Origin: Amoebophrya sp. A120
Taxonomy: Eukaryota > Protista > Dinoflagellata
NCBI GenBank assembly: GCA_905178155.1
Contig: CAJINV010000016.1
Span: forward strand, 1,145,386 to 1,209,385
Direction of reading: 5' to 3'
DNA: 64,000 nucleotides
The notes under the pieces are model-generated. The model made no database searches and was not told the origin of the DNA. It saw only the letters and a program-made list of their open reading frames with translations. Position numbers and translations under genes: made by a program. Positions 249 to 64,000 of this stretch are shown here, piece after piece; the first letter of the stretch is position 1; every line of letters begins with the position of its first letter.

Positions 249-1717
249 ATGACAGCACAACAAACGACCACCAGGACGAGCAGGGGAAATGCAGCTGCGC
301 CGACAGTAAAAACATCGGCTCGTCGCGGCCGTTCCGCCCTTTTATTCTCGCGCCTACCCTTGGTGATCAAGAGCAGCTCTTGCATCCTTCTGTTCTCGCC
401 CGGAGGTGTCTCTGGCAACCGTAACGGTCAATCGTCGCAACAAGATAAATCTTCTAGTGCTAGTGGACGACCATTGGCATCAACTTCAGCCGCAGGAGAA
501 GATCATACCGCTCTCTTTAGTACCGGCCTACCGCGATCCGCTTCCGCTGCAACCTCATCAGCAAGAACTGCGGTGTCGTCGGATCATCGCGCTTTTACCA
601 CCGGAAAAGCAGATAGCGTGTTCCTGGACTCTGTTGGCGACGTCGATGAAGATTCTGGTGCTGCGTTACTACTAGATGGAAATGGCTCAGTGTCGGCTAC
701 CACGTCGGGCAGCAAGGAGAGAAACAATGGTAGACTACGACGCAACACGAAAACGAAATCAGGATCAGCTCCAAGAACATCTTCCTCACAGTCGGCTAGT
801 GAACTACAACTGGCTTTGGATCATCCCAGCATGATGCCCCATGATCATGTGCCTGGTCACGACGTGAGCGTCGATTCTGCGCCAGTACAGCGCGTGAGCA
901 AGTCGTCGCCGCTGGAGCTGCACCCCCTCCAAGGAGACAACTCGACTAAGAACAAGAAGTCACCACCTGCTGCCGTGCGCAAAGAAAAAGATGGAAGTTC
1001 TCTGTCTGTTCAGCAAGAAAAACAGCACACAACAAGCAGAACAACTTCGGGAAGAGACGAGTCGTCGAGAATAAACGCAGCAGACGTCTCCTCGAAGCAG
1101 AACAACCCCGGGCAACCTCCGTTCTCCCGTCAGCAACATACTGTTCCGGCGGAAGGAGCAAGCAGCTTCCTGGAACAAGTTTTGCTACGAATCGTCTCCG
1201 TTCCCAAATTTACGAAGCGTCTGCGCCAGAAAGCTTTCGGAAGCAGAACGGAACCTGCGTCAACCGGCAAGAACCTCCTCCTGCAAACCCAGCATCTGAA
1301 GAGCAACCGAGCAAGCGACCACGAGCCCAGTTACCTCATGACGGTGACGGAATATTGTGAAGCGGAGGCATATCGTATGCAAGAGAAAATAACCTGGGTA
1401 CGTTTAAGTCTGTAATGCGATCATGCAACACGAACACTCACAGTTACACTTGTCAACATGCTGGCCAGCCATGGGAAGCTATTTGTTTTTCATCGCGTTT
1501 TGTTTTCAACTACTAACTAGTTGAGCATCACATTAACAGGCTTTCTGTGTGGTCATGCAGAAGAGATTTGTCATGCTGTCTCTCCACGAGACCTACACTA
1601 ACACAGTTTTTCTCTTGGATATATCGGACATGCATACCAAGCTCTACTTTCCTTGATCCATCGGAGATCAAAAGAGTGTCTGTAAGCGGTTCAGGCCGTT
1701 TTTTCACATTGAGATGA
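249..1717 (+). CDS. Hypothetical S/T-rich low-complexity protein; one introner (1376-1621); 3' end uncertain (may extend to ~2005 via a GT-AG intron)
   Basis: 388-aa ORF from 249. Removing 1376-1621 plus one TATCG copy continues the frame (AYR|TCIPSST...) to TGA at 1715-1717. Confidence 0.55.
1376..1621. mobile_element. TAT...ATA introner, family G (246 bp)
   Basis: TATGCAAGAGAAAA...TTTTTCTCTTGGATA; TSD TATCG/TATCG. Confidence 0.85.
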
Positions 1718-2016
1718 TGAAACGCAAACTAGTCCTTGGCGTCATGTACGAATTGTCGTGGCAGTCGCTGTCCTATCTATCATCCATTTTCAGCTTGTAG
1801 CTCAGACGAAGCGCCGTCACAGCATTGGTCTCTTCGAATACGTATCAAGAAGAGTTGTTCTGTGTTTCATACTACAGAGAAGAAGAATGGCGGCGGCGAC
1901 ACGTGTTTTTATGCGTGTAAGGACTACTACTACAAGTGCCACGACCCGCCTCTGCACGTATTTTTGATTTCGATAATAAATAGCTATCTTGGTATGAACT
2001 TCTGATTCTGGTCTGT

Positions 2017-3128
2017 TTCCTACGGGTGCAGCTCCACAATTTTTTTCAGTAAATAATTTTCTCTACTTCCTCGTCCTATCCTACCCAATCCCGATGCGTC
2101 AGCATAGACCATGCGAAGGGCGCAGCCGGACCCCGGGGGCGCCACTTGGAGGCCGCACCAGTACCCCCTTGTTTTGTCCGTAGGTGGCACACTAGGGGGT
2201 GCCAATCATCATCACGGGCAAAGACAGGTAACGATGCAGGATGCACCTGCTGCAGCATCTACATCTGCATTGGCAGGACATCTCCAGCTTGCATGGGCAA
2301 CAGCAACAAGCTTGCATGGTCATCGACATGAAGGGCAGCAACATGGTATATCAGGCAGCAATTTGTCGCGCACGCAAACTCCCACAGGCCACGGGAGCGA
2401 CAGGCTTTTGTCCGTAGGTGGTACACTTGGCATGCGGGATAGGGACCATGACGAGGCAAAAATATACTGCTACAGATGCGTGATAAGTCTCGAGCTCAAC
2501 TCACTATGGCTCTGTGACCTGGATTTTTATTTTGCAATAGAATTTCGCATCGCAAATGGAAGGTGTTCCTTTTCTCAATATGATCGTTCTGCACTCCTTC
2601 GACCTTTCATGGAAGAACACTTGATGGCACAGCAAAGATTTGCCATGCGCAGCTTGACGTCGGAGCTGTGATCTTCTTCCTAGAGTCTGTTTTAGTGCTA
2701 GCGCAGCCATCAAAGAATAGATTGTCACTGTACACGGAGCTCAAATCATACAAGAATATCTTTCAGTCTTCCGAAGCAGCGCATGCAGTGCACAGGGGAG
2801 ATCCAGCTTGAGTTCATGTCCACTGCACTTCAACATTCTAAACCCCGGAGCCGACCTTGACCGAAGGAGCAACTTTTAAAATCAAAAACCGAAATTCTGA
2901 CTACAGCAAGAGGCGCTGGCTGTTCATAGCCTTAGCACCAACTTGGCGCCAGCCTACTAGGCTAAGCAACAACGTCCCAGGCATGGCACTCATGCCGTGC
3001 CGGTAACTGCAACTGTAGTGCTCTACTATCATGCTATTACTGACAGTTTCACGCATTTTTTCAGTATATTCCTAGTACTGACAGTTTCACGCATTCCTAC
3101 GGGTGCAGCTCCACAATTTTTTTCAGTA
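2017..3128. repeat. Dispersed direct repeats: 35-bp TTCCTACGGGTGCAGCTCCACAATTTTTTTCAGTA at 2017-2051 and 3094-3128, plus a near-identical TTTTGTCCGTAGGTGGYACACT pair at ~2172 and ~2406
   Basis: Exact or near-exact repeats read directly from the sequence. Confidence 0.7.
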
Positions 3129-4150
3129 TATAAATTTGTGCGCACAGGTAATCTCAAACTCAAACGCACACTGACGCTTGTGCATGTTTTCATTCGCTTT
3201 ACAGCAACTCTTCATGAATTGTATTGTCATTATGTGACACGTATCCTGTGCAAAAGTATCGTATTCCGTATTCGTATAAATGCAAGTCTTGTTGCATTAC
3301 AAATCTTTTTCTTAAGGAAAATCCGCATTACAAATTTGATTTCTGATGCTGACGAAATTTGTAATGCATTTATACGAGTACGATACTTTTGCAGTTCATA
3401 ATACGACTCCCACAGGGCCCCGACCTTGTGACCAAGGCTGAAGAAGATCAGTGTAGCGACTCCTATCAAATGCAAATGTGTCTGGGTCTGGAAGCAGGTT
3501 GCAACTTGTGATGCTGTATTTGGATACTACAAAAGTCTGCATTGCATGAACAGCACAAGAGGTCCACGGAGAGAGGGCATTTCTCATGCGGTATATGCAT
3601 GAGAAAGCCCTCACAAAATCTGTCATGCTAAAGCATGCATCACAGACGTCAGGAGTCATGCAAGCTGTGCATGACAAACCTTGCATCTTTCCAGATTCAG
3701 ACATATTTGCAATGCATAACTCCTGCTACGACGCAATCGACCACTACGGGCTTTCCTGCCCGAAATCGGAATACGCCAGGGACGGTTCGAAACACGTCAA
3801 GGACGGCTGTACCTGGTTCGCGGATCTCTTTGGCAGCTGTTTTCTCCTCCTCCTGTTCTGCGGCTGCGTGTATGCATTGCAAATAAAGTATCGCTCTAGT
3901 ATAAATTGCATTACAAATTTTTATTTTGGCAAGAAGGTAAAGTGCAAGTGGAATTTGTAATGCTGTCTTTCCTTGAGAAAAAAAAGTCATGCACATTTGC
4001 AATTAGTACGAGTACGATACTTTTGCACAGGATAGCGTGACTGCCACACCCATCTGCTGTGCGTTTTTCTGCATCAACTACGCAACGAACCGGCAGCCTG
4101 TGGTGGTGGTGCAGCAGCCGCATCCAGAAGAAAGCTCAATGTGGCACTGA
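2997..4150 (+). CDS. Small Cys-rich single-pass membrane protein; three introners; start codon uncertain
   Basis: Removing 3242-3400, 3464-3718 and 3871-4034 (each plus one TSD) gives ...YVTRLPQGPDLVTKAEEDQCSDSCYDAIDHYGLSCPK...FGSCFLLLLFCGCVTATPICCAFFCINY...SMWH* (TGA 4148-4150). Confidence 0.6.
3242..3400. mobile_element. TAT...ATA introner, family B
   Basis: TATCCTGTGCAAAAGTATCGTA...TACGATACTTTTGCAGTTCATA; TSD ACACG/ATACG. Confidence 0.88.
3464..3718. mobile_element. TAT...ATA introner, family A
   Basis: TATCAAATGCAAATGTGTCTGGGTCTGGAA...TTCCAGATTCAGACATATTTGCAATGCATA; TSD ACTCC. Confidence 0.92.
3871..4034. mobile_element. TAT...ATA introner, family B
   Basis: Family B TIRs; TSD GCGTG. 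Confidence 0.9.
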
Positions 4151-4937: not shown

Positions 4938-7158
4938 ATGTCGACCCCGGTTCTTCCACAGGACGAGCCACGCAAGGCGAAAAAAACTTGCACCATCGTC
5001 ATTGTCCGTCATGTATGAAATTCAAAAGCATCGTACTAGTATGAATCGCATGACAAATTTCCTCAGCATGAGAAAGAAAATTTGTAATGCGGATTCGACC
5101 TGAGAAAGAAATTTGTAATGCATGAATGCGATTACTACGAGTGCGATAGTTTTGCACAGGATACCACGGAGAACGGTTAGACTACGAAGATTCCACCTGG
5201 GTGCTGAGCCGCAGCTCCGATCCGTATTGCAAGGAAAAATCCTCTCTTCCCATATCTAGACGAAGCTTCTGATGCCGGATTTCCGTACACAAATGCGCGC
5301 TGTCTTGCAATACGGCATCGCAGCCAGATCCTCAGCCTAGCTTGGGGCGTTTATTGGGTCTAGTTGTTTAGCATTACAAACGGCTTCCCCCTAGGCCGAA
5401 CAGCGTGCCAAATCGCTTCCATAATGGCGCGGAAGCCTCTGCGCTTGTCTTCTTGCAAGACAGGCGTGGTTTGTGGTCTCAAAGCAGCAACGCAAATTTT
5501 CGGAAGCATACCCTTTCGATATGGGGTGGGGGGATTTTTCCTCTGAATAATCCAGAATCCACACCCTATGACCCGCCCTTGACCGATCGCGGGTTTCAAA
5601 TGGCCCGGCAGGCGGGGCGGGAAATTGCGAAGTTGCTTCAGGAAGTGGTGGAGATATCCTATGCAAAAGTATCGTACTCGTACTAATCGCATTCATGCAT
5701 GACAAACGTCCTTCGTAAGGTGAAACAGCATTACAAATTTCATTTGTAATGCTAAGCGAATTTGTAATGCAGTTACTACTAGTACGATACTTTGGCATTT
5801 CATAGGAGAAAAAAACTGACAAAACTTGCGCAGCTCGTCCCCTCCGCATAATCACCTCGCCCCTGTTGCGTTGTGTGCAAACGAGCTGTGGACTGCGGGA
5901 GGGGCTGTTGAACTTGAAGGAGAGAGGACAATTGGGAACAAGGGAAGCTGGCGACGACGTCGGTAACGATAACACCAGAGAGGGAGAAGTTGGGACGCCC
6001 TCCGGCTCTTCTTGTTCTCGTCCTATTCCCTTCCACTGCAGCCTCGCCCTGACGGAAGTTGCAATGGATAAGTGGTATCTCGCGTGGTGTGTCCCAAACC
6101 AATCCGACGGCTCCTGGGGCGGGCCGTACGGGTTCAAGCTGCCCTCTAGTGAGGAGGAGAAGAACGCGCTGAATCTCCACCCCGCGGCGACAGCGCCGAT
6201 CGGGAAATTGCTCCAGAAGTGCGTGAAAGAGAATTTTCTCAGCGCGATCAGGACCGCCGGAGGTCGTGCTGTTGGTGTTGAACAAGGGGAGCAGGCAGGA
6301 GTAGCCTCTGGGAGACATCAAGTAGAAGGTCCACCCGGTCGTCCGTCGAAGTCGAGCTGCTACTGGTTAGACCGAGATGGACCATATCAAGATGTTGACG
6401 CAGCGCTGCCTTCGGACGATTTTCAACGAGTAAACACGTTCACCAAAGACGGGACGAATAACAAGGTGATCTTGACCAGGGAACTCACGGCAGAGTCCCG
6501 GAAAATTTGCAGAGAGCAGATCAGTGAAGGGACGACTGTAGACCACCACATTGGCTGCGAGGAGGGAAAAAAACGCAGCAGGGACGCGGACCTACAAGGA
6601 GCTGCAGTCATGATCCCCTTCGCGTGCCAAAGCAGCTTCGAAGCTGCATACAACCTCTTCAGCCCGGAGACGAGCCGGGAACTGAAGCAGCGCATGAAGA
6701 ACTTTGTCGCGGAGCTTGAAACGCGATTTCCAAACGAAACCCTAATCCTCTGCACCCACGGAGGGCCGACGTCGGCTGCGGTTACGGCATTGAGCGGAGC
6801 GCACGGAGAACAAGGGTACACGAGTATTAACGTTTTGGTGCCGAAGGAAAGAAACGTAAGCGCGTCCTCGCCATCTTCTGCTGGTGACACCGACGGCAAA
6901 GACCATGCGGCCCAACACGCTCCAGCAGATGCTGAAACGACGACGAAAGGGAGCAATCGCGAAAGCTATGCCGAAGATGTAGATTTGTACGACTACGAAA
7001 CGGTCGCTCTTTCACACGACCGCCACCTGCAGTGTGTGTATGATGCGGACATGCAATTGCAGAAAGACCACATGATCGCAGCTGCGAAAAAAGATGCAGC
7101 GGCGGGCCGTGGCGCGGATAGTTGTACTAGGTCTGGTGATGTCAGGAACAATTTGTGA
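4938..7158 (+). CDS. Histidine phosphatase superfamily (phosphoglycerate mutase-like) protein; three introners
   Basis: After removing 5014-5163, 5225-5549 and 5655-5804: MSTPVLPQ...TIVIVRHGERLDYEDSTW...PYDPPLTDRGFQMARQAG...RIITSPLLRCVQT...LILCTHGGP. These are the canonical RHG, SPxxRxxQT and THG motifs. Confidence 0.9.
5014..5163. mobile_element. TAT...ATA introner, family B; splits the catalytic RHG motif
   Basis: Family B TIRs; TSD TCATG/CCACG. Confidence 0.9.
5225..5549. mobile_element. TAT...ATA introner, family E
   Basis: TATTGCAAGGAAAAATCCTCTCTTCCCATATC...GATATGGGGTGGGGGGATTTTTCCTCTGAATA; TSD ATCCG/ATCCA. Confidence 0.88.
5655..5804. mobile_element. TAT...ATA introner, family B
   Basis: Family B TIRs; TSD GGAGA. 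Confidence 0.9.
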
Positions 7159-7982: not shown

Positions 7983-9651
7983 ATGTCCGACGTTGAGACT
8001 GAGCAGGAACATCATGATCCTCACGTCGATCATGATGACGAACACGAAGAATTTCCCGGAGCCGCGCCTAAGGAGCCCTTGTTCTTCGGGGGCGACCACC
8101 GGTCCAGCAACCACAGCCGGTCCAGCTCCCACGGCTCGCACCACAGTCATCACAGTCACCACAGCAGCCATCACAGCCACTCCTCGCACGGCTCGCATGG
8201 CTCGCATGGAGGCGGAGGCGGTTCGGGCAATCCGATCACGGACATGATCAACAATATGATCTGCTTGCTCTGCGTCCTCCCCTGCATCTGTCTGTTGATC
8301 ATTATTGGGTCGATCGTGTATTGCTGCAGGGCCTGTTACGGGTACGAAGACAAGCACACTTCGTATCAAGTGCAAAAATGTCTGGGTCTGGAAGAGTGTA
8401 TTAAACTTGTCATGCAGATTTTCCATGACCTTGACCCATGAGGTCTGGAATGCGGGACTTAGCATGACAGACTCTACTGCAGCGAGGTCTCCGCCATGCC
8501 TATCCCGCGTGAGAAGGAGCTCCCTTCCAACTCGGACGAAAGTGGGCAGCTTTTGGCACTCATGCATCAACACAGATTTTTTTCATCGCATGCTTCAGAT
8601 TTACAAGGACCATGACAAGTTACCACCTTCCAGACCCACTCATTTTTGCAATCCATACTTCGGAGTGTGTGACAACCGAGGTGAACGGGGTAAAGACGAC
8701 AAAGTGCACCAATTCCACCTCTGGCGCTCCCGACGACTCGGGTGGTTTCCTGTCTAGCTCTAGCCGCCGCCGCGACGCCATTTTTTCCGACAGCCGGCGC
8801 CGGCGCCGCCGCGAGGCCGATCATTTTCTTTCCGCCAGGGTGGAAGACAGCCGGCGGCGTGACAACTCGAGCCGCAGGCGGGACTCCAGCCGCAGGCGGG
8901 ATTCCGGCCGGCGCCGGAGCTCCCATAGCTCGTCTTCGTTTCTGGAAAACCGAGATCAAGATTTGCAACTGCAAGACGCGGAAAGCGAAACCAGCTTTCT
9001 ACAGAAGCTGTACGGCCACTTGTTCAATAACAAAAATGGCCGCGAAGATCATGACAACACCGAACAAGCACAAGCTTCCGATCTCGGCCCTGCGAATTGG
9101 GACGACTACGCCGACACAAGAACTGCGGAGCACCAGGGCGCCAGCACGACTGGCACGACAACTGCTGACCGGTTCCTCGAGAAATTGAAACGGAAAGCGG
9201 GCGAGCTTCGGGCGGACGAAGAAGACCACGAAGACGATGAGACGACCATGCAGTCCTCTGGTGAACAAAACTCCGATCATTTTTCCACGGCTGAGACGGA
9301 AGAAGCCGGCCCGTCTTCGTACCTGGAGAATTGGGAGGAGAAGGCCGACCCGTCTCGTCCCGGGAGGCAGGGTATACTTGTTTTCTCCGTGATGTTTCTT
9401 TCCGTTTCCACAAAAGTGCTGCATCCAAAGAAATTGAAATCCTGTATCAAATAAAATCCAGCGATCAAAAAACAAATTTTGTTCGGATATTCGATCCAAA
9501 AATGTTGATCTCAGGCACCGACCGACTGGGAGAGGACGGGGACGAGGAGGACGACGATCGTGCTTCGTCCGTCGAACCCGCGGAAGATGACGGCAGCTCG
9601 GCCGCCGGGGATGAAGGTGGGGAGAGCGATGGCGCTGCGCATTCAGATTGA
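7983..9651 (+). CDS. Hypothetical membrane protein with His/Ser-rich N-terminus, Cys-rich TM segment, SRRR repeats and acidic tail; introner 8364-8657 and GT-AG intron 9372-9514
   Basis: ORFs 7983.., 8612.. and 9331.. join in frame (KHTS|ECV; RQG|TDRL) to TGA at 9651. Confidence 0.75.
8364..8657. mobile_element. TAT...ATA introner, family A
   Basis: Family A TIRs; TSD CTTCG. Confidence 0.92.
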
Positions 9652-21738: not shown

Positions 21739-22045
21739 TATGGTAGTGTCAGGTTTGAAATGGTCAAAGTTGAAATAATTTGTAATGCATAAAATGCATG
21801 GCCCGAAGTACGTGCGTTGCAGAGCGGGAAAGTGAGGCCGATTGTAAGCCTGTTTGGGGTTACAGCTCGAGCTGCTAAAGTAGCTTGAGAAAACCACCCT
21901 TCTTTGCCTAAACAGCATGACAGACTGGATTTAGGGACCGCCGAAATTTGTCATGCGCCAATTGGAAACTGGGTTCCAACTGGCATCCATTTTATGCATG
22001 ACAAATCATTTCAACTTTGTCGATTTCGATTCTGACAGTTCCATA
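21739..22045. mobile_element. TAT...ATA element, family C, outside any detected CDS
   Basis: TATGGTAGTGTCAGGTTTGAAAT...ATTTCGATTCTGACAGTTCCATA; TSD TTCAA. Confidence 0.88.
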
Positions 22046-36107: not shown

Positions 36108-36415
36108 TATGGAAGCGTCAGGTTTGAAATCGACAGAGTTGAAATGATTTGCCATGCATAAAATGCAAGGCGCTTAGTGCTTGTCTTGCCGAGATGGCAA
36201 GCGAGGCCGATTGTGAGCCTGTTTAGGGATTGAAATAGAGCTGCTAAAGTAGCATGACAAAAGCAGTCTTCTGTGCCCAAACAGCATGGCAAATCGGATT
36301 CCGGTGCCCGGAAAATTTGTCATGCGCCGCTTGATAAGTAGGCTTCCGACTGGTATCGCTTTTATGCATGACAAACTATTTCAGCTTTGACGATTTCAAT
36401 CCTGACACGCCCATA
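36108..36415. mobile_element. TAT...ATA element, family C, outside any detected CDS (intergenic or 5' UTR)
   Basis: Family C TIRs; TSD GCTTT/GTTTT. Confidence 0.88.
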
Positions 36416-51900: not shown

Positions 51901-54900
51901 CCACCCCCGCGGGGCGGGCACGCGCGCGGCCTTCATCCAGCGCTGCTTTTGCGGGAAGCACACGGAACTCGACGACGTTTTCTGCGTGGAGCGCGTGCCC
52001 TACAGCCTGCAGAAGGCGCTGCCGGGGACCGCGAAGCACGGCGCCTTCTTGCGGATGATGCGCCGCAACCTGTCCAAGATGGTGGCCCGCGAGTCGTTCG
52101 AACTCCGATTGCTGGAAGATTTGCGGTTGCGGTTCGCGAACGAGGTACCCTATGTAAAAACGTCCCCACTCCATATTTGTAGTGCAAATGTGCAACGACT
52201 GTAACATTTGTAATGCGCATCTGCATGAGAGGCATTTCCAATCGTGTTTTGGACTTTGTAATGCTGTAAACAGGATGACAAGCTGGCTTTCTCGTCATGC
52301 GGCTGCCTTTGCCAACCAGCACTACACTGCCGATGGGAACTTGTCATGCACAGCGCCCAAATCTTGGAGATTTGTGTTGCAGATAGACCAACTTGACTAT
52401 CGGGCGGGGACGTTTTTGCTCAGGATACGAGGCGAAATCGCGCGCGGGGCAAATGAACTTCTGCCGGGACATCACCTTCTGCTTCGACCTGCACGAAGAC
52501 AAACACTGCCGCATCCAAATGGCTACGCAGGTATGATGTTGGGGTCGAAAGAGCTTTTGCTTTTCACATTCAATAGTCCTGTCTGCGTTAGTGTGATTGT
52601 GATACTTATTAATTTCAATTTCCACCTCCGATTTTTTTACTGATTCTGTACCTGTACGTCTTTCTCATCATGATCATAGTCATTTCATCTGAAAGCATTG
52701 TGATTGGCTCCGGATGAACAGGATCATGATCGTCCAGTCTTCCTAAAACCTATCTCCCCAACCCCGACATCAGGGTCCTCCTGGGTGAAGATCAACATTA
52801 TGTTGTTGTTGGTGATCTCGATATATAACATCAACACTTTTATCGGCATAATTTAAGTAAGTAGTACGTACAACAAACACCTCAGGTTCTCCTCTGGTTG
52901 TGGCGTTATTCGCAGAACCTGTCCACCTCCAAGTCCGCGATGTTGCAATTTGTCGGGCGGTATCAAATGTAAAAATGTCTGGGTCTGGAAGAGTGCAAGA
53001 TTTGTGATGCAGGTTTTCCATGACCCACGAGGTCTGCAATGCGAGACCCAGCATGACAGATTCTTTGACGTCTCTATCATGCCTTTCCTGCATGAGAATC
53101 TCCCTCTCAACTTGGTCAAAAGCGGACAGCTTTTGACACTTACGCAACACAGATTTTTGCATCATTGAGATTTAGCATGACAAGTTCCATTCTTCCAGAC
53201 CCAGACACTTTTACACTTGATAGGCGGAAAGAGGGCAACAACGGGGGCTTAAACCCGACCTTCCGCGTCCGCCATGTGTACGACCGCACGGACCTGATGA
53301 TGGACGAGGAGGTCCGAGACTACGTGCAACACCAATCCACCTGGGACCTGTTTAAGTTGGACCCCAGCTATGAACTGCAAAAGTATCGTACTAGTAGTAA
53401 TTGCAGTCATGCATGACAAAACTGGTTCCTTAGCTTATTCGGCATTACAAATTCCATTTTTCTTTCTGGAGAAATTTGTAATGCTATTTCTACTAGTACG
53501 ATGCCTTTGCAATGCATACCTCCATGTGCTGGTCGATTCGGAACATCTCGCCGCCCGCTTTGGAAACGTACACCGAGGTATCAAATATAAAAGTGTCTGG
53601 GTCTGGAAGATTGCCAGGGTTGTCATGCACATTTTGCATGACTACTGATGTCTGTGATGCATGCCCTAGCATCACAGATTTTGTGAGGGCTTCCTGATAC
53701 CTATACCGCATGACAAATGCTCTTTCCGTGTAGCAAAACTTGGGCTCTCCTTGCTGCTCATGCAATACAGATTTTTTTGGAATCCAAAATCAGCATGACA
53801 ATTGGGATTCTTCCAGACCCAGACACTTTTGCATTTGATACGAGGCCGAACTCGCCCGCCGGCGCGCGCGGAGGCAAGTGCGCATGAAGGCGGCGCAGCT
53901 GCGGAAGCAGCAGCGAGCAAACAACAAGGGACAAGCTGCGAAGAAAGGTGTGGCAGGAGAGCTCGACCGAAATAACACCAGTAAATCTTCGGACGGCACA
54001 GAAGTTGTGAACGCGAACAGTGTTGAACATGGTGAGCTGTTGGAAAGAACTGCCGACGACAAAGCTCCTTTGGAACAAGGTGAGCAAGAACCTGGCAATG
54101 TGGATCATTTGTCCGATGACGACGACGATCACGCCGACGACATTGACTTTACGAAACCGATCGAAGGGCAGCAGAAGATGAAACAAAAAGCCACGATTGC
54201 TGGTCATCTTCAAAGCAAGGCCGCTTTGAAAACGGGTAGTTCCTCCTCGGCGGAACAAGATTGCGATCATTTGTTGAATAAGCATCGCAAAAGTATCGTA
54301 CTAGTACAAATTGCATTGCAAATTTTTTGTGAAACAAAAATGCAGTTTGTCATGCGGATTTCGGTAAAAAAGCGAATCTGTCATGCGTCGTTGCATTTGC
54401 AATTAATACGTATACGAGTGCGATACTTTTGCAATGCATATTGAATTCCTCTTCGAAAGGTACATCCGACCAAGACCTCCTGCAAGACGCGGCACTGCTA
54501 CAAGATCCCTCGCAGGCCGCCTTGGAGCCGGTTCCCATCCCGCCCTCTCTTCTGAATTCGAACCGTTGTATGAAAGTGCACAACTCCCCCTCCCCCTCAT
54601 TTGTCATGCAAAATTCCAAATCCACCCTTTGCCTGTTAGTACGGTTTGCATGACAGATTCCGGAATCCGAAACAGCACTACAATCTCCTAGAAGGAATTT
54701 GTCATGCAAAAGCTGCATCTTTGCCAGCGCATGTGTTGCTGTTCATGCAATACAAATGAGGGGGAGGGGGAGTTGTGCACTGTCATACGTTGTCGCCCGT
54801 GGCTGGAATGCACCTACATCTGCGGCACTAGGATGAAGCTCAGCTTTCGGAAAGGTATATATCATGTAGAAGAGCTCTCTAGAAGAAGAAGCATGTGGTC

Positions 54901-57900
54901 TTGTAGTGGATGCCATCGCGGCTTGGACAGTGCTGCTTCGGCAGCCTTGCTTTCTTTCAAAATTATTTTTACAGCAATGTCGTTAACTGCTAATAAATAC
55001 ACCGATCATCATGTCGGTTGTTTTTGCATCGATGTCTATCACGATAGAACAGCACACAAATCGATTCATCAAATTCTCAAATAATCCAGACCTTGCCATC
55101 CAAAACTCCGTGATTGCGTATTGCGAAGCGAACCAGATCAAGGTCGAGAATGTCGGGCCGGTGGCGCCACTGTCTTACGTATCAACTGCAAAAATGTCTG
55201 GGTCTGGAAGAGTGCCAGACTTGTCATGCAGGTTTTCCATGACCCATGAGGTCTGGCATGAAGGACATAGCATGACAGATTCTGTGAGGGTTCTATAATG
55301 CCTATCCTGCATGAGAATCTGCCTCTCGATTAGGTCAAAAGTGGGCAGCTTTTGGTAATCACGCAACACAGATTTTTACATGATTCCAATTTAGCATGAC
55401 AAGTTGGAATCTTCCAGACGCAGATCCAGACATTTTTATATTTGATAGCACGCCGACTTGGACAACTACAAGATGCTGGTGGACAAGAAACAGTGCCAGG
55501 GTATGCGGACTGTCATGGAGGAAGAAACAGCTGGCGAAAATAACGGAGCTGCAGGAAACAATCAGCACTCGGGCACCACAACTTCCAACGGCAACGGGAA
55601 CAACAACAATTACACTACAAGCAGTGGCACTCTGTTCGGCAGCAGCACTTCGCCTGATGATCCTTCCGCCATTGCTTTGGCTCAGAATGGAAACGGGTTT
55701 GCGATCGCTCCGTTCAACACGAAGAACAACGGTGAAGTAGATCCGACGGCAAACAACACTGGTTTGGGTGGATCCCAAGAACTTCTTCGCAAACTGGACT
55801 CCGAGACGGAGTTCGAAACGCAGGAAGAGATGATGCGCAAGGCGTTTCAAAACGTGTTCGACGAGGCGAAGCGGGATGTCATTCTGGAGCGGTTGATGGG
55901 CCTCAAATTGACCGTGGCTTCCACGCTGAACTCCACCGCGCTGCCCTCGCACATCGGCTACCACATCTGTTCCAACGGCATGGCGAGTTGGTTCTACTCG
56001 CAGCTCGGGATGTGTTATGCATTGCAAATATGTCTGGGTCTGGAAGGTTGTAACTTGTGATGCTACCTTTGGACTCTAAAAAAATCTGTATTGCATGACC
56101 AGCAAAAGGAGTAGAGTTTGTGCTACGCGGGGAGGGCATTTGTCATGCGGAATAGGCATCGCGAAGGTCTCTAAAAATCTGTGATGCTACGTCGTGCATT
56201 ACAGACATCCTGAGTCAGGGAAAATATGCATGACAAACCTGGCAACCTTCCAGACCCAGACATATTTGCATTTGATATGTGTGTGAAATTCAACATTGGG
56301 TACTTGGAAGCGACGCAGCTCTGGGTGGAGGGGAAAGAATTACGGGCTTTGATGCTCCGGAATCAGGCCCCCGGCTCTGGCGGAACAGGATTATTATCCA
56401 GCGGTCTTCTTGACAAAAAAACTCTCTCGTTACGATCTACGCACGCCGGTGCAGGAGCAGGCGACGAGAATATTAACGTCTACCACACCACCCAGCAGCT
56501 TTACGGCCCCCGCAGCACGTTGTACAAAGATACGCATTACCGGGAACAGGTGCGGGCGATTGGAGGAAATATGGTACCTATCCAAGAAAAAGTCTGTGTT
56601 AGTGTAAGTCTTTTGGGAAAACAGCATCACAAGTTTGTCTGCCGTGACAGGAAAAGCTTGTAATGCCCAGATAGGAAGGGAAAACACATAGGAAGCCAGC
56701 CGATCACGCATGTGGTCGAGCATGACAAGTCTAACTGTTTTGCACTTTCTGCATCACAGATTTACACTATACACAGTTTTTTTCTTGCATAGTACCCGCT
56801 CGGGATGCGGAGTTTCACAGCATCGAGGATTTGAATTCCCTGGATGATGAGGAAAACTTACATTTGCACTCTTTCGAAGTAGAGAACAACTTGAATTTCC
56901 AGTGGTTGGACCACCGCAACAGCAAACACAACGCTACCGCGGCTCCGAAGTTTGAGAACGAAGACTGCGAGGTGCAGAATCAGTACCACGTGGATTGGTT
57001 ATGCGTTGCAAATATGTCTGGGTCTGGAAAGGTGGAACTTGTAATGCGCGTCATGCATTCCTGCAAAATCTGTGCTGCATGAACAGCAAGTGGGCAGCTT
57101 TCCTTGTCATGCAGCACTACCACAGTTTATAATTATCCGTCTTAGGTATCAGAAAGTGTTCCGAAAGCTTGTCATGCTGAGCTGCCATTGCAAGCGTTAC
57201 AATCATGCGCAATTCAGCATCGCAGATTTCCAGACCCAGACATATTTGCAGTTGATATTGGTGCATGGTCGACCATGCGCATTGGCGGGACCGCGACGCG
57301 CGCTATGAAATGTAAAAATGTCTGGGTCTGGAAGAGTGTAGACTTGTCATGCAGATTTTCCATGACCCATGAGGTCTGGAATGCGGGACTTAGCATGACA
57401 GACTCTGCGAGGCCTCTGCCATGCCTATTCTGCATGAGAAACTCTGTTCCAACTTGGTCCAAAGTGGACAGCTTTTGACACTCATGCAACACAGATTTTT
57501 GCATGCTTCAGATTTACCATGACAAGTTGCAATCTCCCAGACCCAGACACTTTTGCAATTCATACACGCCGGAGTCAGTCGAAATTCAAGGAATTTTTGC
57601 GGTCCGAAGAGCAGCAAGAAGAGATGAAATTCTCCGGGTATAATGCTGGAGATAAAAGCAACGGGTTGTTCTGCTCTGTGAACAGGGATGTGGATCCGAC
57701 CAAGTTTTCCTGTAAGTTTAACAAGTATAACATGTGGATCAACACCGGTTTCCGCGAGGTTCGTGCCTTCCCGATCTACCGCGTGGCGACCAACTACGAG
57801 GAATACGTCCGCTACATCAACGGCTTTCTGCATGTCTTTTACGTCAGCAGCTCCGTCGACTCCGGGCTTTATAAGGACTTGTGGTACAAAAATCTACAAC

Positions 57901-59546
57901 ATGTGCATCAACTCTTCCTGACTTGTTTTCTGACTGCATGACGTTGGTTATACTTCCTTGGACGATGATGCATCAGATTGATCATGAGCTAAAAGTAAAA
58001 ACCGCGGCTCCTTCGATAAGGTTGTTCCAATCTTGAAATAAACAATCAGGTACGACAAGGAGACTCTGCGCGATCTGTTGATTCACAAGGATGAGTTAGC
58101 GGCGAAGATGAATAACACGAGCACCCGAGGAGCCAGCTCTTCTGGAGCAGGTGCAGCAACTTCTGCGACCACCACGACTGAAGAAAAGAATAACGCCGTC
58201 GACCACATGGAGCGCACGCAATCCGATTCCAGCACGGAAACTACAGCGTCTACTGGCGGGAGTACTGCTGACAAGAAAAGCGTGGGGAAAAAAATCATCC
58301 GCGAGGAAACCACGGGCGTTTCGAAGAAGAAGGTAGCGGCAAAAACCTCCAGTCGCTCGACCAACAAGTACCGGAACTATGGGGTGCCGTTGTCCGATCT
58401 GGTGTGGGATCCGGATATTCACGTGTTTGACTGCTTTTGCATCACGCACCCGATGTTTGTGAACCTGAAGTTGCAGAAAGCCTACGTGATTTGGCCACGG
58501 TCGAGGTCGGAGCTGCTCGAGGTCTACGACAACATCGATGTTGCGGAGAATGTGTTGACAAAGAAAGATGACAAGAACGAAGATGGTGCTACCGGCAAGG
58601 ACGAGGATGGCAATACTACCGGAACCGGCGCAAAGGTACAAAGAGAACTAGTAGAGCTGCTCTGCAAGAAATGTACACTACTCTCAGCTCTTACTAGCGC
58701 TTCATTTTTGATACTTAAATAAACATGATACACCTGCTTCATACCTCTTCTTGAAAATCAGATCGGTTTTTTCTTTTTTTCTCCCTCCACCTTTTTGTTT
58801 CACCTCTACTTAATTTTTTTGTTTCTTTTCAGGCTCCCGGCTCTTTCGGAGATGTAGTAGCTGAAGAAGAAAGTGTTGCTTCTCGTGACGACGGTGATGT
58901 TCTTCCTGAGCTGCAAAATAAGACTGCCATCTGTGACTCTTCTGAGAGTGAAGAGCACACGACTCATGATTTTTCCCGTACCACACCGCGCGCTCGAACT
59001 CCCAGCTATTTAAAACAGAAGGACAAGCGGACCCGGCTGGTACAGGAGGACATCGAAAACGGTCGGGTGCACCGATTTCCGCAGTCCTGGAAGCTCCACG
59101 AGCTGCCGCTGCACTCGGTGGTTGCGTTGCGAAACCGGGAAGAGGTGTTGAGCACGATCACGCGATTATCCTGAGCAAAAATGTCCCCAACCCAGAGTTG
59201 TCATGCAAATCTGCATGCCAGAAAAGCAAAAGTTTCTCATGCGGAGCCGCCTGAGAGCCATTTTCGACATCAGGTTTTGGAATTTGTGATGCTAGAATCA
59301 GCAAGCATGATGTGCTAGATCTATGATGCTTCGGAACTAGCTAAACAGGATTACACTCTACAACGAGGACAAACTTGTCATGCGAAACAACCAAAGCTGG
59401 TTGATTTGTCTAGCAGATTTCCCATCTTGGCTCAGATGTGGGAACATTTTTACTCAGGATAGCGATTTGACCTGATTTTGTCGGGAGAAAACCTGCGCGG
59501 TTTCAGCCCAGAGGAGCTGGCGGGGTTGACTTCGGTGGACGAGTGA
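36988..59546 (+). CDS. Giant (~3,755 aa) hypothetical protein: Q/G/H/N-rich low-complexity N-terminal two-thirds, an RRM-like segment and globular C-terminal regions; 27 introners and 4 GT-AG introns (52531-52915, 54855-55089, 57884-58049, 58636-58832)
   Basis: Each of the 31 junctions was checked by hand and keeps the frame from ATG 36988 (MQYNQAQQ) to TGA 59544-59546. Summed exon length 11,268 nt is divisible by 3. RRM-like motif LMLQNLPRNLTREDLRRLV near 51050. Confidence 0.75.
37310..37561. mobile_element. TAT...ATA introner, family A
   Basis: Family A TIRs; TSD CGAAG/CGGAG. Confidence 0.9.
37663..37984. mobile_element. TAT...ATA introner, family E
   Basis: TATCACAAGGAAAAATCCCCCCTCCCCATA...TATGGGGAGGGGGGGTTTTTCCTCTCAATA; TSD TGCAG. 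Confidence 0.9.
39305..41425. mobile_element. Diverged family A introner with a MULE-like element inserted in its right TIR (2,121 bp in total)
   Basis: TATGCACTGCAAATGTGTAATCTGGGTCTGGAA...CCAGACA[insert]...TTTGCAATGGATA; TSD CGTCG/CTTTG; frame restored. Confidence 0.8.
39600..41404. mobile_element. Non-autonomous Mutator (MULE)/Foldback-like transposon, 1,805 bp
   Basis: 9-bp TSD AATAATAAT (39591-39599 and 41405-41413); GG...CC termini; modular TIRs of ~8 RGAATCA units (39600-39731) and ~6 inverted TGATTCC-like units (41300-41404). Confidence 0.82.
41490..41749. mobile_element. TAT...ATA introner, family A
   Basis: Family A TIRs; TSD CCGGG/GCAGG. Confidence 0.87.
41864..42158. mobile_element. 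TAT...ATA introner, family F
   Basis: TATCGTATTGGAAAACATCCCCAC...GTGGGGACGTTTTTACTCAGGATA; TSD CGCAG/TGCAG. Confidence 0.86.
42206..42457. mobile_element. TAT...ATA introner, family A
   Basis: Family A TIRs; TSD GGAGG. Confidence 0.92.
42539..42794. mobile_element. TAT...ATA introner, family A
   Basis: Family A TIRs; TSD GAACT. Confidence 0.92.
43700..43961. mobile_element. TAT...ATA introner, family A
   Basis: Family A TIRs; TSD ATGCA. Confidence 0.92.
45533..45840. mobile_element. TAT...ATA introner, family C
   Basis: Family C TIRs; TSD GCCGG/GCAGG. Confidence 0.9.
46600..46862. mobile_element. TAT...ATA introner, family A
   Basis: Family A TIRs; TSD GAAAA. Confidence 0.92.
46965..47176. 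mobile_element. Degenerate family B-like introner (ends ATG rather than ATA)
   Basis: TATCCTGCGCAAAAGCATCG...CTTTTGCCATGCATG; TSD GAAAT/CACAT; frame restored QAE|MMQQ. Confidence 0.7.
47339..47590. mobile_element. TAT...ATA introner, family A
   Basis: Family A TIRs; TSD CGACT. Confidence 0.92.
48018..49793. mobile_element. Long (1,776 bp) TAT...ATA element with ~62-bp TIRs; candidate decayed master or deletion derivative of the introner transposon
   Basis: TIRs 48018-48078 and 49732-49793 (first 16 nt TATGAGAGCGTCAGGT perfect); perfect TSD CCGGA; removal restores LEP|ETKAMLSKK. Confidence 0.88.
48845..48991. repeat. Central inverted repeat of the long element
   Basis: Perfect 16-bp core CCTCTAAGTAGTTGAG (48872-48887) / CTCAACTACTTAGAGG (48950-48965), within imperfect ~42-bp arms. 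Confidence 0.85.
51282..51477. mobile_element. Degenerate family B introner, stop-free and frame-preserving
   Basis: TATCCCATGTGCAAAAGCATCG...CTTTTGCATTGCATA; TSD AGACG/AGATG; 196+5=201 nt. Confidence 0.8.
51579..51830. mobile_element. TAT...ATA introner, family A
   Basis: Family A TIRs; TSD CCTTA. Confidence 0.92.
52146..52427. mobile_element. TAC...ATA introner, family F
   Basis: TACCCTATGTAAAAACGTCCCC...GGGGACGTTTTTGCTCAGGATA; TSD CGAGG. Confidence 0.88.
52961..53222. mobile_element. TAT...ATA introner, family A
   Basis: Family A TIRs; TSD GGCGG. Confidence 0.92.
53369..53518. mobile_element. TAT...ATA introner, family B
   Basis: Family B TIRs; TSD CCAGC/CCTCC. Confidence 0.88.
53579..53840. 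mobile_element. TAT...ATA introner, family A
   Basis: Family A TIRs; TSD CGAGG. Confidence 0.92.
54279..54440. mobile_element. TAA...ATA introner, family B
   Basis: TAAGCATCGCAAAAGTATCG...CGATACTTTTGCAATGCATA; TSD TTGAA. Confidence 0.88.
54569..54787. mobile_element. TAT...ATA introner, family D
   Basis: ~36-bp near-perfect TIR TATGAAAGTGCACAACTCCCCCTCCCCCTCATTTGT; TSD CGTTG. Confidence 0.92.
55180..55447. mobile_element. TAT...ATA introner, family A
   Basis: Family A TIRs; TSD TTACG/GCACG. Confidence 0.88.
56016..56277. mobile_element. TAT...ATA introner, family A
   Basis: Family A TIRs; TSD TGTGT. Confidence 0.92.
56579..56791. mobile_element. TAT...ATA introner, family G
   Basis: TATCCAAGAAAAAGTCTGTGTTAGTGTAA...TTACACTATACACAGTTTTTTTCTTGCATA; TSD GTACC. 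Confidence 0.9.
57000..57257. mobile_element. TAT...ATA introner, family A
   Basis: Family A TIRs; TSD TTGGT. Confidence 0.9.
57304..57564. mobile_element. TAT...ATA introner, family A
   Basis: Family A TIRs; TSD CGCGC/CACGC. Confidence 0.9.
59167..59461. mobile_element. TAT...ATA introner, family F
   Basis: TATCCTGAGCAAAAATGTCCCCA...TGGGAACATTTTTACTCAGGATA; TSD GCGAT. Confidence 0.9.
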
Positions 59547-62500: not shown

Positions 62501-62783
62501 GGTTCACCACCAACGTAAGCATGTGCATTCATTCATTGTACTCAGCTGGATCTGGAATACGCTAATGCACAATTCTACCTTGTACTTGGACAGGAAATTG
62601 GAAAAAGTAAACGTAAAGATTTACGTTTGCAGTTGCTACTTGATCGTGCTTGTGCTCGTTGTAACCTCAACAAAAGAAATACAAAAATAGAAAACATAGT
62701 GTGCGCAGCCGGAACAAGGTCTTCTTCTCTTCTGTTATTCGATTTTCTTGAAATTGTCCTCTTGCAGGTGGAAGATCAACAAG

Positions 62784-64000
62784 ATGAGCATGAGCCCCAT
62801 CAATGTTCTGGGACCTAGTGGGTCCGCCGAGTTGCTGGCTGCAGGTGGTTCTGGGCGCGGCCGGGGAGCGGCGGCTACTACGGCGGGAGAAGTGCAGCTG
62901 GAGATCGATGGTAGTGATAATATCAAATGTAAAAGTGTCTGGGTCTGGAAGAATCCGAACTTGTGATGCTGCATTTGGATTCCAAAAAAATCTGTATTGC
63001 ATGAGTACCAAAGGGAATGCAATTTTTGCTGCGCTGAGAAGGCATTTGTCATGCGGAATAGGCATCAAGAAGCCCTCAAAAAATCTGTATTGCTAGGGTA
63101 TGCATCACAGACATCATGGCTCATGCAAAACGTGCATGACAAGTGTCAGAATCTTCCAGACCCAGACATTTTTGCAGTTGATAGATAACTATGCGTCGCA
63201 AAATGATGAAGACGAGCAAGAAGAAGTCGAGCGGTTATGAAATGCAAAAGCATCGTACTAGTATGAATCGCATTACAAATTTGCTCAGCATGAAAAATTT
63301 AGTTTGTCATGCTGTTTTACCTTGGGATGGAGATTTGTGATGCATGGCTGCGATTATAATGCACGAGTGCGATACTTTTGCACAGAATAGCGGTTTCAGT
63401 GCAGCAAGTTTGTGAAAATCCTTGGGCTATGGATTGCAAATATGTCTGGGTCTGGATCTGGAAGAAGACAAACTTGTGATGCGCATTTTAGAACACCGAA
63501 AAATCTCTCATGCATAGGTAGCAAAAGCTGCCCACTTTCTGTCACCAAAATGTGGGATTTATCATGCGGATTCGGCATTGCGGAAGCTTCTCGAAACCTG
63601 CGATGCTAGAGCTTCCATGCCAGACCTTCTGCGTCATGCAAAGACAGCATGTCGCTTCCAGACCCAGACACTTTTACACTTGATATGGGCCGGGCATCAT
63701 GGTTTGCCTCGCGGACACCGACGGCCCTTGTCTGGTCACGGCTGGAGAGAGCGGATCGCTGTATGGGTATTCCCTTGTGTCCTGCCAAATTTTGTTAATC
63801 CCCATCCTCTTCGCCGCACAGGAGCTCACGGTGCGACTCTCGCTTTTGACCAACAAGGGGCTCACGGAGCTGATTCGCATCCACTTCGGGGTGTTCTGGG
63901 CCCGGCTCGCGTGCGCCGTGCTCGTGATTACCTATGGTTTGCAAAAGCATTGTAGTTGTACTAGTATAAATTGCATTACCAAGCATTACAAATTAAATTT
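62784..64000 (+). CDS. NRAMP/SLC11 (MntH-related) divalent metal transporter, 5' part, truncated by the window end; four introners
   Basis: Spliced product ...FVKILGPGIMVCLADTDGPCLVTAGESGSLYGYSLVSCQILLIPILFAAQELTVRLSLLTNKGLTELIRIHFG... fits the NRAMP TM1-TM3 pattern GPG...D...YGY.L...QE...RL...T.KGL..LIR..FG. Confidence 0.85.
62921..63183. mobile_element. TAT...ATA introner, family A
   Basis: Family A TIRs; TSD GATAA. Confidence 0.92.
63236..63389. mobile_element. TAT...ATA introner, family B
   Basis: Family B TIRs; TSD GCGGT. Confidence 0.92.
63428..63685. mobile_element. TAT...ATA introner, family A
   Basis: Family A TIRs; TSD TGGGC. Confidence 0.92.
63933..64000. mobile_element. Family B introner, truncated by the window end
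   Basis: TATGGTTTGCAAAAGCATTG... left TIR only. Confidence 0.75.

What the first reader, a model, noticed from the sequence alone, without database searches (positions are those of the whole stretch)
1376..64000. TAT...ATA / 5-bp-TSD transposon introns removed precisely without GT-AG signals
Seen: 56 elements in at least 7 TIR families (A 24, B 17, C 4, D 2, E 2, F 3, G 3, plus 1 long). Nearly all are bounded by TAT...ATA with a 5-bp direct repeat; 39 of the 55 complete ones have a perfect repeat. 54 lie in coding sequence, and deleting element plus one repeat restores the frame wherever both ends are visible. This includes the RHG catalytic motif, an EF-hand loop, FkbM motifs and NRAMP TM1. 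The repeats have arbitrary sequence, and sliding the junction within them usually cannot produce GT...AG (e.g. CTGCA at 26437, CCTTA at 51579). Established: such IR+DR non-canonical introners were reported in Amoebophrya, with the excision machinery unresolved. Inference: a structure-directed, probably non-spliceosomal excision system coexists with normal GT-AG introns in the same genes.
Basis: partly seen in the sequence, partly recalled or inferred. Interest (0 to 1): 0.85.

Follow-up and report, generated by a model that had tools for sequence, protein, structure and literature searches.

The report
Amoebophrya transposon introns, fixed offset cut
This is DNA of the marine parasite Amoebophrya A120, whose genes hold already-described small transposons that are missing, together with one 5-base duplication, from spliced transcript contigs although most have no GT-AG ends; three informative junctions suggest a fixed cut one base before and four bases after the element's predicted hairpin, and the machinery is still untested.

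Summary
In detail: 56 elements (55 complete, 39 with a perfect 5-bp repeat, 52 TAT…ATA, 53 complete ones in reading frames). The window is Amoebophrya sp. A120 (100% protein match), and these introners were published in 2021 (PMC7789003), so the phenomenon is known. Added here: (1) putative RNA contigs from two samples skip element + 5 nt at all 6 elements in the tested stretch, beside 2 GT-AG introns; (2) three imperfect repeats agree on one cut register only, after base 4 of the duplication, so the intron would be N·TAT…ATA·NNNN; (3) a sister genome shows 4 empty sites with a single 5-mer; (4) in 215 oriented copies the first and last intron bases show no selection for GT, AG or G-G/A-C terminal pairs. 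'Non-spliceosomal' is not shown: the register puts T and A at intron positions 2 and 3, as in the host's GTA donors. I rate a remodelled spliceosome 0.5, a separate nuclease/ligase 0.4. Lariat versus circle sequencing would decide.

The parts
1376..1621 (+). introner family F, DR TATCG/TATCG
3242..3400 (+). introner B, DR ACACG/ATACG
3464..3718 (+). introner A, DR ACTCC
3871..4034 (+). introner B, DR GCGTG
4938..7158 (+). host gene: histidine phosphatase superfamily protein (A120 protein P0001), 3 introners
5014..5163 (+). introner B in the RHG motif, DR TCATG/CCACG; contig joint 5012>5168, cut after repeat base 4 or 5
5225..5549 (+). introner G, DR ATCCG/ATCCA; joint 5219>5550, cut after repeat base 0-4
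5655..5804 (+). introner B (opposite orientation to 5014), DR GGAGA; skipped in contigs
8364..8657 (+). introner A, DR CTTCG; skipped in contigs of X1 and X3
9372..9514 (+). canonical GT-AG intron, spliced in the same contig as 8364
12839..13008 (+). canonical GT-AG intron, spliced in the same contig as 15334 and 18501
15334..18454 (+). 3.1-kb B-ended introner with GC-rich cargo, DR CCATG/CCACG; joint 15332>18459, cut after repeat base 4 or 5
18501..18755 (+). introner A, DR AGGCG; skipped in contigs
19270..19520 (+). introner A, DR TCCTT
19627..19852 (+). introner E, DR TGCGC
20531..20683 (+). introner B, DR CAGGG
21739..22045 (.). element C outside a long reading frame, DR TTCAA
25471..25636 (+). 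introner B, DR TGTGA/CGTGA
26144..26394 (+). introner A in EF-hand gene, DR AGGAA
26437..26586 (+). introner B in the EF-hand loop DADCSGEID, DR CTGCA, no GT-AG option
29175..29481 (+). introner C in FkbM gene, DR TCGGG
29534..29750 (+). introner F, DR TATGA
29826..29982 (+). introner B, DR CGATC
30283..30427 (+). introner B after AFEPFR, DR TTCCG
30480..30759 (+). introner A, DR GCTTT
30804..31850 (+). 1-kb B-ended introner with cargo, DR GGCCA
31950..32220 (+). introner A, DR CAGGA
36108..36415 (.). element C treated as non-coding, DR GCTTT/GTTTT
37310..37561 (+). introner A, DR CGAAG/CGGAG
37663..37984 (+). introner G, DR TGCAG
39305..41425 (+). 2.1-kb degenerate A-ended introner, DR CGTCG/CTTTG; removal joins two ORFs in frame
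41490..41749 (+). introner A, DR CCGGG/GCAGG; reads GT…CAG in the base-4 register
41864..42158 (+). introner D, DR CGCAG/TGCAG
42206..42457 (+). introner A, DR GGAGG (GT-AG possible)
42539..42794 (+). introner A, DR GAACT
43700..43961 (+). introner A, DR ATGCA
45533..45840 (+). introner C, DR GCCGG/GCAGG; reads GT…CAG in the base-4 register
46600..46862 (+). introner A, DR GAAAA
46965..47176 (+). degenerate introner B ending ATG, DR GAAAT/CACAT; removal joins two ORFs in frame
47339..47590 (+). introner A, DR CGACT
48018..49793 (+). 1.8-kb TIR element, DR CCGGA, no long reading frame (longest 174 aa)
51282..51477 (+). introner B, DR AGACG/AGATG
51579..51830 (+). introner A, DR CCTTA, no GT-AG option on the coding strand
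52146..52427 (+). introner D starting TAC, DR CGAGG (GT-AG possible)
52961..53222 (+). introner A, DR GGCGG
53369..53518 (+). introner B, DR CCAGC/CCTCC (Ser in both copies)
53579..53840 (+). introner A, DR CGAGG (GT-AG possible)
54279..54440 (+). introner B starting TAA, DR TTGAA
54569..54787 (+). introner E, DR CGTTG
55180..55447 (+). introner A, DR TTACG/GCACG
56016..56277 (+). introner A, DR TGTGT
56579..56791 (+). introner F, DR GTACC
57000..57257 (+). introner A, DR TTGGT
57304..57564 (+). introner A, DR CGCGC/CACGC
59167..59461 (+). introner D, DR GCGAT
62921..63183 (+). introner A in NRAMP gene, DR GATAA; absent (single GATAA) in sister genome locus L053
63236..63389 (+). introner B in NRAMP gene, DR GCGGT; shared with L053
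63428..63685 (+). introner A in NRAMP gene, DR TGGGC; shared with L053
63933..64000 (+). introner B cut by the window end; absent in L053

Best explanation
These are non-autonomous TIR DNA transposons of Amoebophrya A120 that insert with a 5-bp target duplication and are missing, with one duplicate, from spliced transcript contigs; they are likely cut one base before and four bases after the predicted TIR hairpin, most likely by a remodelled spliceosome that reads N-U-A at the 5' end and would use the hairpin, not AG, to place the 3' cut. Shown: TIR/5-bp anatomy, insertion at empty sites, both orientations, removal of element + 5 nt from putative RNA contigs, presence in the DNA-like run, and no sequence constraint on first or last intron bases. 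Inferred from 3 junctions: one constant register (N5·TAT…ATA·N1N2N3N4). Because 1 + 4 equals the duplication length, every insertion would be scar-free in the mRNA, so the elements can pile up in exons (31.6% of the window). Inferred and untested: that the spliceosome does the chemistry, that the hairpin acts as ruler, and that an unseen transposase binding the shared internal motif moves all families.
For: Removal: joints skip exactly element + 5 at 6 of 6 elements in 4800-19200 (5 in X1, X3 and X4; 8364 in X1 and X3), in contigs that also lack 2 GT-AG introns. DNA-like run X5 has 0-difference pieces running from exon into element ends. Register: allowed cuts {4,5}, {0-4}, {4,5}, intersection 4. 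Transposition: 4 empty sites with a single 5-mer, 2 each way, against sister locus L053; 208 of 259 sister copies have a perfect 5-bp repeat; orientations 36/48, 24/15, 16/12, 7/7 in the four largest clusters. For a spliceosome-derived machine: the register gives +2 T, +3 A, as in 11 of 12 curated canonical donors of the window (GTA); only 1 of 6 possible registers does so. Published Table S4 has T at +2 in all 9 top A120 sites and TT in all 9 top A25 sites, whose IRs start TTA. Two copies (41490, 45533) have drifted to GT…CAG in this same register. A120 keeps 83 of 89 spliceosomal proteins, with U1 snRNA not found. Fritillaria MITE-derived non-canonical introns are spliceosomal (review passage).
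Against: No constraint where a normal spliceosome needs it: G-G plus A-C terminal pairs 42 vs 35.2 expected, whole table p = 0.66; GT-AG possible in 12 of 215 vs 9.5 ± 3.0 by chance; AG at the last two bases in 18 of 215. PMC13326754 section 30 states that splicing depends on such terminal pairs. TAT may sit at +2..+4 only because the transposase needs it. The register rests on 3 junctions, all with G as left repeat base 5, so 'cut at the nearest GT' fits them equally. All 6 verified elements keep a GT or an AG in this register; the 28 of 53 with neither have no RNA joint here. Runs X1, X3 and X4 are guessed to be RNA and are contigs, which drop rare forms. Stem selection was not seen (G·U 102 vs A·C 154). 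Table S4 sites depend on aligner placement. No transposase ORF was found in the long copies.
Confidence: 0.5

Rival explanations
1. A separate, non-spliceosomal endonuclease/ligase recognises the TIR hairpin or its conserved sequence, cuts with a 1-nt/4-nt stagger and joins the exons, as proposed for euglenid nonconventional introns.
For: First, last and second-last intron bases are unconstrained in 215 copies. Removal is orientation-independent (5014 and 5655 are opposite, both skipped) and works over 150-3121 nt. Strong predicted stems (median z -6.7). Families C and E lack a 3' U tract (consensus ends). Euglena precedent with fixed spacers N3…N5-6 and circular excised RNA (review). U1 snRNA not found in A120 or A25, but found in a strain with canonical introns.
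Against: The register coincides with the canonical +2 T/+3 A. Copies that read GT…AG in that register exist (8 of 215), and 15% of canonical A120 introns carry DR+IR. The TIR is palindromic, so orientation independence does not exclude a spliceosome. No candidate enzyme was identified. No G·U enrichment.
Confidence: 0.4
2. The junctions are reverse-transcriptase template-switch artefacts across a hairpin between direct repeats; the elements stay in mRNA and are bypassed otherwise (for example by ribosome hopping).
For: Hairpin plus direct repeat is the classic setting for RT skipping (recalled, no call). 24 of 44 differences between repeat copies were synonymous in the first count. All RNA evidence here is cDNA-derived contigs.
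Against: An RT jump copies the downstream repeat first and would keep its letters, but at 5014 and 15334 the contigs carry upstream-copy letters up to base 4. Single contigs of 2.8-6.6 kb run through several joints, one over 3.1 kb. The synonymous excess falls to 24 of 48, P 0.08-0.30, when two old elements are added.
Confidence: 0.04
3. Removal happens in DNA (stage-specific excision or element-free alleles), not in RNA.
For: The elements are DNA transposons and element-free alleles exist in a sister genome. The RNA status of X1, X3 and X4 is a guess.
Against: The same contigs lack canonical GT-AG introns and have little or no depth between genes. X5 carries exon-element borders without differences, though its joint table was swamped by repeats, so rare empty alleles are not excluded.
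Confidence: 0.03
4. An ordinary spliceosome uses nearby cryptic GT-AG sites.
For: 5 of 53 coding elements can be read GT-AG.
Against: The six observed joints skip exactly element + 5; none can be GT-AG (options: one GC-AG, one GA-AG). The A120 protein annotation agrees.
Confidence: 0.02

Closest known systems
Amoebophrya A120 introner elements (Farhat et al. 2021, PMC7789003)
   Same: Same organism; IR starting TAT, then about seven variable bases, then an A run; 3-5-nt direct repeats; about 240 nt; non-canonical ends; mixed with GT-AG introns; RNA-seq-supported.
   Different: Nothing in kind. The paper calls splice sites 'variable' relative to the hairpin, the border 'unknown', with no clear dinucleotide signature. 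Here the repeat is uniformly 5 bp and three junctions point to one register.
A120 TIR-DNA introner families of Gozashti et al. 2025 (PMC12130899)
   Same: 58 families; most of the 21 rows seen are TIR DNA of unknown superfamily, with about half non-canonical sites in the large families, and lengths near 150, 250-260 and 305 bp that match B, A and C here.
   Different: Their automated TSD calls run from 2 to 5 and the inferred mechanisms differ between families. The ORF-bearing family 38 (Copia/Gypsy-like) was not recognised in this window.
Euglenid nonconventional introns (Nomura et al. 2025, PMC12501133; review PMC11282704)
   Same: TIR stem, TSD-like repeats, fixed spacers between cut and stem, coexistence with GT-AG introns.
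   Different: Code N3CDG…CH'GN5-6|R, excised as circles, hybrids rare. Here the spacers are 1 and 4, the motif is TAT…ATA, the excised form is unknown, and GT-AG hybrids occur at chance rate.
Fritillaria borealis non-canonical MITE-derived introns (PMC13326754; review PMC11282704)
   Same: Transposon-derived, non-GT-AG, handled by a modified spliceosome.
   Different: They keep preferred ends (AG-AC, AG-AT), U1 snRNA and, for about half, compatible terminal pairs; no such preference was found here.
Micromonas/Aureococcus introners (review PMC11282704)
   Same: Non-autonomous TIR transposons with TSD, scar-free in mRNA.
   Different: They carry or co-opt real GT/GC and AG sites, so only fitting target sites survive; here the target sequence looks unfiltered.

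Membership tests
Amoebophrya A120 introner elements | Occurs in the A120 genome | tested here: met
   Window exon is 100% identical to A120 protein P0001
Amoebophrya A120 introner elements | Terminal IR starting TAT with an A run after about 7 bases | tested here: met
   52 of 55 TAT…ATA; arm profiles
Amoebophrya A120 introner elements | 3-5-nt direct repeat at the exon border | tested here: met
   5 bp, perfect in 39 of 55
Amoebophrya A120 introner elements | Repeated in families | tested here: met
Amoebophrya A120 introner elements | Absent from mature transcripts, non-canonical ends | tested here: met
   6 of 6 in putative RNA contigs; the other 50 not tested with RNA
Non-autonomous TIR DNA transposon (MITE) | TIR, constant-length TSD, empty sites with one copy | tested here: met
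   4 empty sites; 208 of 259 perfect 5-bp repeats in the sister genome
Non-autonomous TIR DNA transposon (MITE) | Cognate transposase in the genome, superfamily assignable | not testable with these tools
   No whole genome held; six-frame reading of long copies shows only GC-rich open frames, which were not scanned against Pfam
U2-type spliceosomal intron | GT/GC at 5' end and AG at 3' end | tested here: not met
   5 of 53 GT-AG, 8 GT/GC-AG; chance level in 215
U2-type spliceosomal intron | Compatible first/last base pair (G-G, A-C) | tested here: not met
   42 vs 35.2 expected, p = 0.66
U2-type spliceosomal intron | T at +2 and A at +3 of the donor | tested here: inconclusive
   Met if the base-4 register is general; the register rests on 3 junctions
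U2-type spliceosomal intron | Branch point and lariat intermediate | not testable with these tools
   Only contigs available; no strand-specific branch motif stood out in arm comparison
Euglenid-type nonconventional intron | N3CDG…CH'GN5-6|R code | tested here: not met
   Ends are N·TAT…ATA·N4; code from abstract
Euglenid-type nonconventional intron | Terminal stem at fixed distance from both cuts | tested here: inconclusive
   Stem predicted; fixed 1/4 offsets from 3 junctions; no wobble enrichment
Euglenid-type nonconventional intron | Excised as full-length circle | not testable with these tools
   Needs raw or RNase R reads; raw runs X8 and X9 gave 40 and 0 reads
Self-splicing or other curated RNA family | Rfam match | tested here: not met
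   0 matches at gathering threshold in 64 kb

The most novel reading that the evidence does not exclude
Amoebophrya A120 has a second, spliceosome-independent mRNA splicing system that cuts at a fixed 1-nt/4-nt stagger around any TAT…ATA hairpin, blind to the bases at the cut, so that the offsets equal the transposase's 5-bp duplication and every insertion of any family, up to 3 kb, is erased from the mRNA: a programmable, scar-free RNA excision code that arose independently of the euglenid one.
Probability: 0.4. Interest if true: 0.85.

Novelty: already known. Interest (0 to 1): 0.5.

Why it matters
How Amoebophrya removes more than 60% of its introns without GT-AG signals has been open since 2021. 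A fixed register turns 'variable, unknown borders' into a defined substrate (N·UAU…AUA·NNNN) for lariat/circle sequencing, mutagenesis and re-annotation of about 30,000 A120 introns. If the spliceosome does it, it would tolerate any first and last base, which goes beyond Fritillaria. If another enzyme does it, it would be a new mRNA splicing chemistry. Either way it would explain how transposons can fill exons without being filtered by target sequence.

Tried and rejected
No whole genome was held. No listed holder is on record as RNA. The lay of 40.5-60 kb gave no usable joint: the gene there has little or no depth in X1 and X4, and repeat contigs of X5 filled the table. Viral contigs: 0 matches to the TIR. 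Two protein searches meant to read non-synonymous repeat differences from annotated proteins of the 37-59.5 kb gene failed (none; a 399-aa single-exon call). The representative search was still queued and gave nothing. Synonymous excess between repeat copies (both copies translated): 24 of 44, 7 of 8 at base 5, falling to 24 of 48 and P 0.08-0.30 with two old elements; not accepted. G·U enrichment as a sign of RNA stem selection: not found (66 vs 89, 102 vs 154, 171 vs 182 for 12, 20 and 30 pairs). Enrichment of G at +1 or AG at the end: the window alone has G at repeat base 5 in 23 of 51, but the sister set has 53 of 164, near background. Excess of one codon phase (81 vs 52 and 51) may reflect target preference and was not used. 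Changes of the terminal T/A pair: 2 clear cases, both at the 3' end, 2 of unclear strand; too few. One of 13 donor coordinates was my slip and was dropped. Rfam: nothing. Earlier-finding searches on Amoebophrya words and on the sequence: nothing.

Full report
Identity. An exon of the histidine phosphatase gene is 100% identical to an annotated protein of Amoebophrya sp. A120, and its only other hit is the A25 ortholog. The A120 protein reads exactly as predicted when the three elements and one repeat each are removed, and the A25 protein has an uninterrupted RHGERLDY motif. Farhat et al. 2021 (PMC7789003; I saw the abstract, the last part of Results, section 16, passages, supplement part 3 and supplement legends, not the figures) describe these introners: IRs starting TAT in A120, 3-5-nt direct repeats, 29,850 repeated introns, U1 snRNA not found, mechanism open. 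The finding is therefore a rediscovery in the published genome.

Observation. Repeat positions match in 48-52 of 53, flanking positions in 8-16 of 53, and no other repeat length fits more than 2. All host frames are on the + strand. Retention gives a stop in 50 of 51 tested. The frame test is partly circular and cannot separate +2, +5 and +8; RNA joints and the annotated protein settle it for the tested cases. GT-AG is reachable in 5 of 53 coding elements. All families share an internal motif TGTVATGC or its complement: 161 hits in 53 elements (17,870 nt) against 3 in 43,725 nt outside.

Transposition. A scan of metagenome contigs returned 135 loci (400,523 nt) of a sister genome. Locus L053 is orthologous to window 60.5-64 kb (about 89% upstream, 92-99% in exons; 6 of 6 codon differences in 240 nt synonymous). 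Two window elements are absent there, leaving one copy of the 5-mer; two L053 elements are absent from the window; two are shared. Of 259 distinct sister copies, found with TAT/ATA required but no repeat required, 208 have a perfect 5-bp repeat. These are target-site duplications of elements that moved after the two genomes split. Copies lie in both orientations (36/48, 24/15, 16/12, 7/7; smaller clusters 7/4, 2/7, 7/2, 6/1).

Removal. In window 4800-19200, contigs of runs X1 and X3 (one sample) and X4 (a second sample), guessed to be RNA, skip 155, 330, 155, 299, 3126 and 260 nt at the six elements, each equal to element + 5 (8364 only in X1 and X3), and skip two GT-AG introns in the same contigs. 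Three other listed joints lie between element interiors and look repeat-derived. The DNA-like run X5 holds exon-element borders with 0 differences. The raw RNA runs gave no test. So removal is precise and at transcript level for 6 of 6 tested; 50 elements were not tested.

Register. Where the two repeat copies differ, the contig letters bracket the cut. 5014 (TCATG/CCACG) and 15334 (CCATG/CCACG) allow a cut after base 4 or 5; 5225 (ATCCG/ATCCA) allows 0-4. If the register is constant it is 4: intron = N5·TAT…ATA·N1-N4. This also argues against RT template switching, which would keep downstream-copy letters. Limits: n = 3, all with G at upstream base 5; contigs hide minority junctions; all six verified introns keep a GT or an AG in this register, while 28 of 53 have neither. 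Outside support: in published Table S4 all nine top A120 non-canonical sites have T at +2 (GT, CT, AT, TT), and all nine A25 sites start TT, though these depend on the aligner. The paper itself calls the sites variable and the border unknown. I did not find a fixed register in six searches, nor in 21 of 58 A120 rows of the Gozashti 2025 dataset (passages and those rows only). Farhat's Figs 3 and S19-S25, which I could not see, may bear on it.

Signals. I oriented 168 of 259 sister copies with a codon model (strand right in 34 of 36 window elements passing the same filter), kept the 164 with at most 2 repeat mismatches and added 51 window elements. In these 215, G at +1 is 35% and AG at the end 18 of 215, both near exon background. 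G-G plus A-C terminal pairs are 42 against 35.2 expected (table p = 0.66), and GT-AG is reachable in 12 against 9.5 ± 3.0. So insertions are not filtered for splice signals, unlike Micromonas introners. The elements fold strongly (median z -6.7, 48 elements, 12 shuffles each), but G·U pairs are not favoured over A·C on the sense strand. One family-A column out of 60 tracks transcription direction rather than element orientation (position 15: 31 vs 9, p = 0.0007); this is unexplained.

Mechanism. Two readings remain close. For a remodelled spliceosome: the mapped register gives N-T-A-T, and 11 of 12 curated canonical donors in the window start GTA (5 GTAT; 2 RNA-verified); A25 would give T-T-A; two copies have drifted to GT…CAG in that register; nearly all spliceosomal proteins are kept; Fritillaria is a precedent (review section; abstract and section 30 of PMC13326754). 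For a separate nuclease/ligase: free first and last bases contradict the terminal-pair requirement stated in PMC13326754; size and orientation do not matter; Euglena has a fixed-spacer stem code with circular products (abstract and Discussion of PMC12501133; review). I put 0.5 on the spliceosome and 0.4 on a separate system. A strain with canonical introns has U1 (passages of PMC12005148), so the loss or divergence of U1 goes with the introners; that fits either reading. PMC12787238 (passages) added nothing.

Verdict. Real, precisely as described, and already known as a phenomenon. The new, testable element is the candidate 1/4 register together with the lack of end constraints. Interest 0.5.

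Noticed in passing
family A TIR position 15, window and loci L001-L135: The A/G variant tracks transcription direction, not element orientation: A on the 5' arm with C on the 3' arm 31 times, G with T 9 times (p = 0.0007, 1 of 60 columns). A·C is favoured over G·U; unexplained.
   Followed up: partly
all element families, window: Shared internal motif TGTVATGC/GCATBACA, 161 hits inside against 3 outside; likely a common transposase-binding site, so one mobiliser may serve all families.
   Followed up: partly
window 53363-53523 and other imperfect repeats: The two repeat copies at 53369 read AGC and TCC, both serine; 7 of 8 differences at repeat base 5 are synonymous. Overall excess not significant.
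   Followed up: yes
window 16826-16928: About 103-nt palindrome with 25-nt perfect arms inside the GC-rich cargo of the 3.1-kb element; parts of the cargo have divergent copies in the putative RNA contigs.
   Followed up: no
window 48059-49026: A 972-nt contig of run X1 matches the long element with 35 differences at depth about 70: another copy is present in that run; no long ORF here.
   Followed up: partly
window 36988-59543: With the two degenerate elements removed, the frames from about 37 kb onward join, suggesting one very long gene with 27 elements, with little depth in the runs laid.
   Followed up: partly
window 39600-39740 and 41290-41400: Short GGAATCAG/CTGATTCC tandem repeats at both inner ends of the 2.1-kb element, in inverted arrangement, suggesting a second element nested inside.
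   Followed up: no
window 25774-25930 and 20320-20450: Presumed GT-AG introns that contain CATGAC/TTGTCATGC-like motifs; possibly old introners turned canonical.
   Followed up: no
window 2095-2470: GC-richer stretch with an internal repeat (TTTTGTCCGTAGGTGG twice) and no match elsewhere in the window or loci.
   Followed up: partly
L053 1-6031: The sister genome's NRAMP gene carries its own set of elements (2 shared, at least 2 not in the window), showing ongoing lineage-specific insertion.
   Followed up: yes
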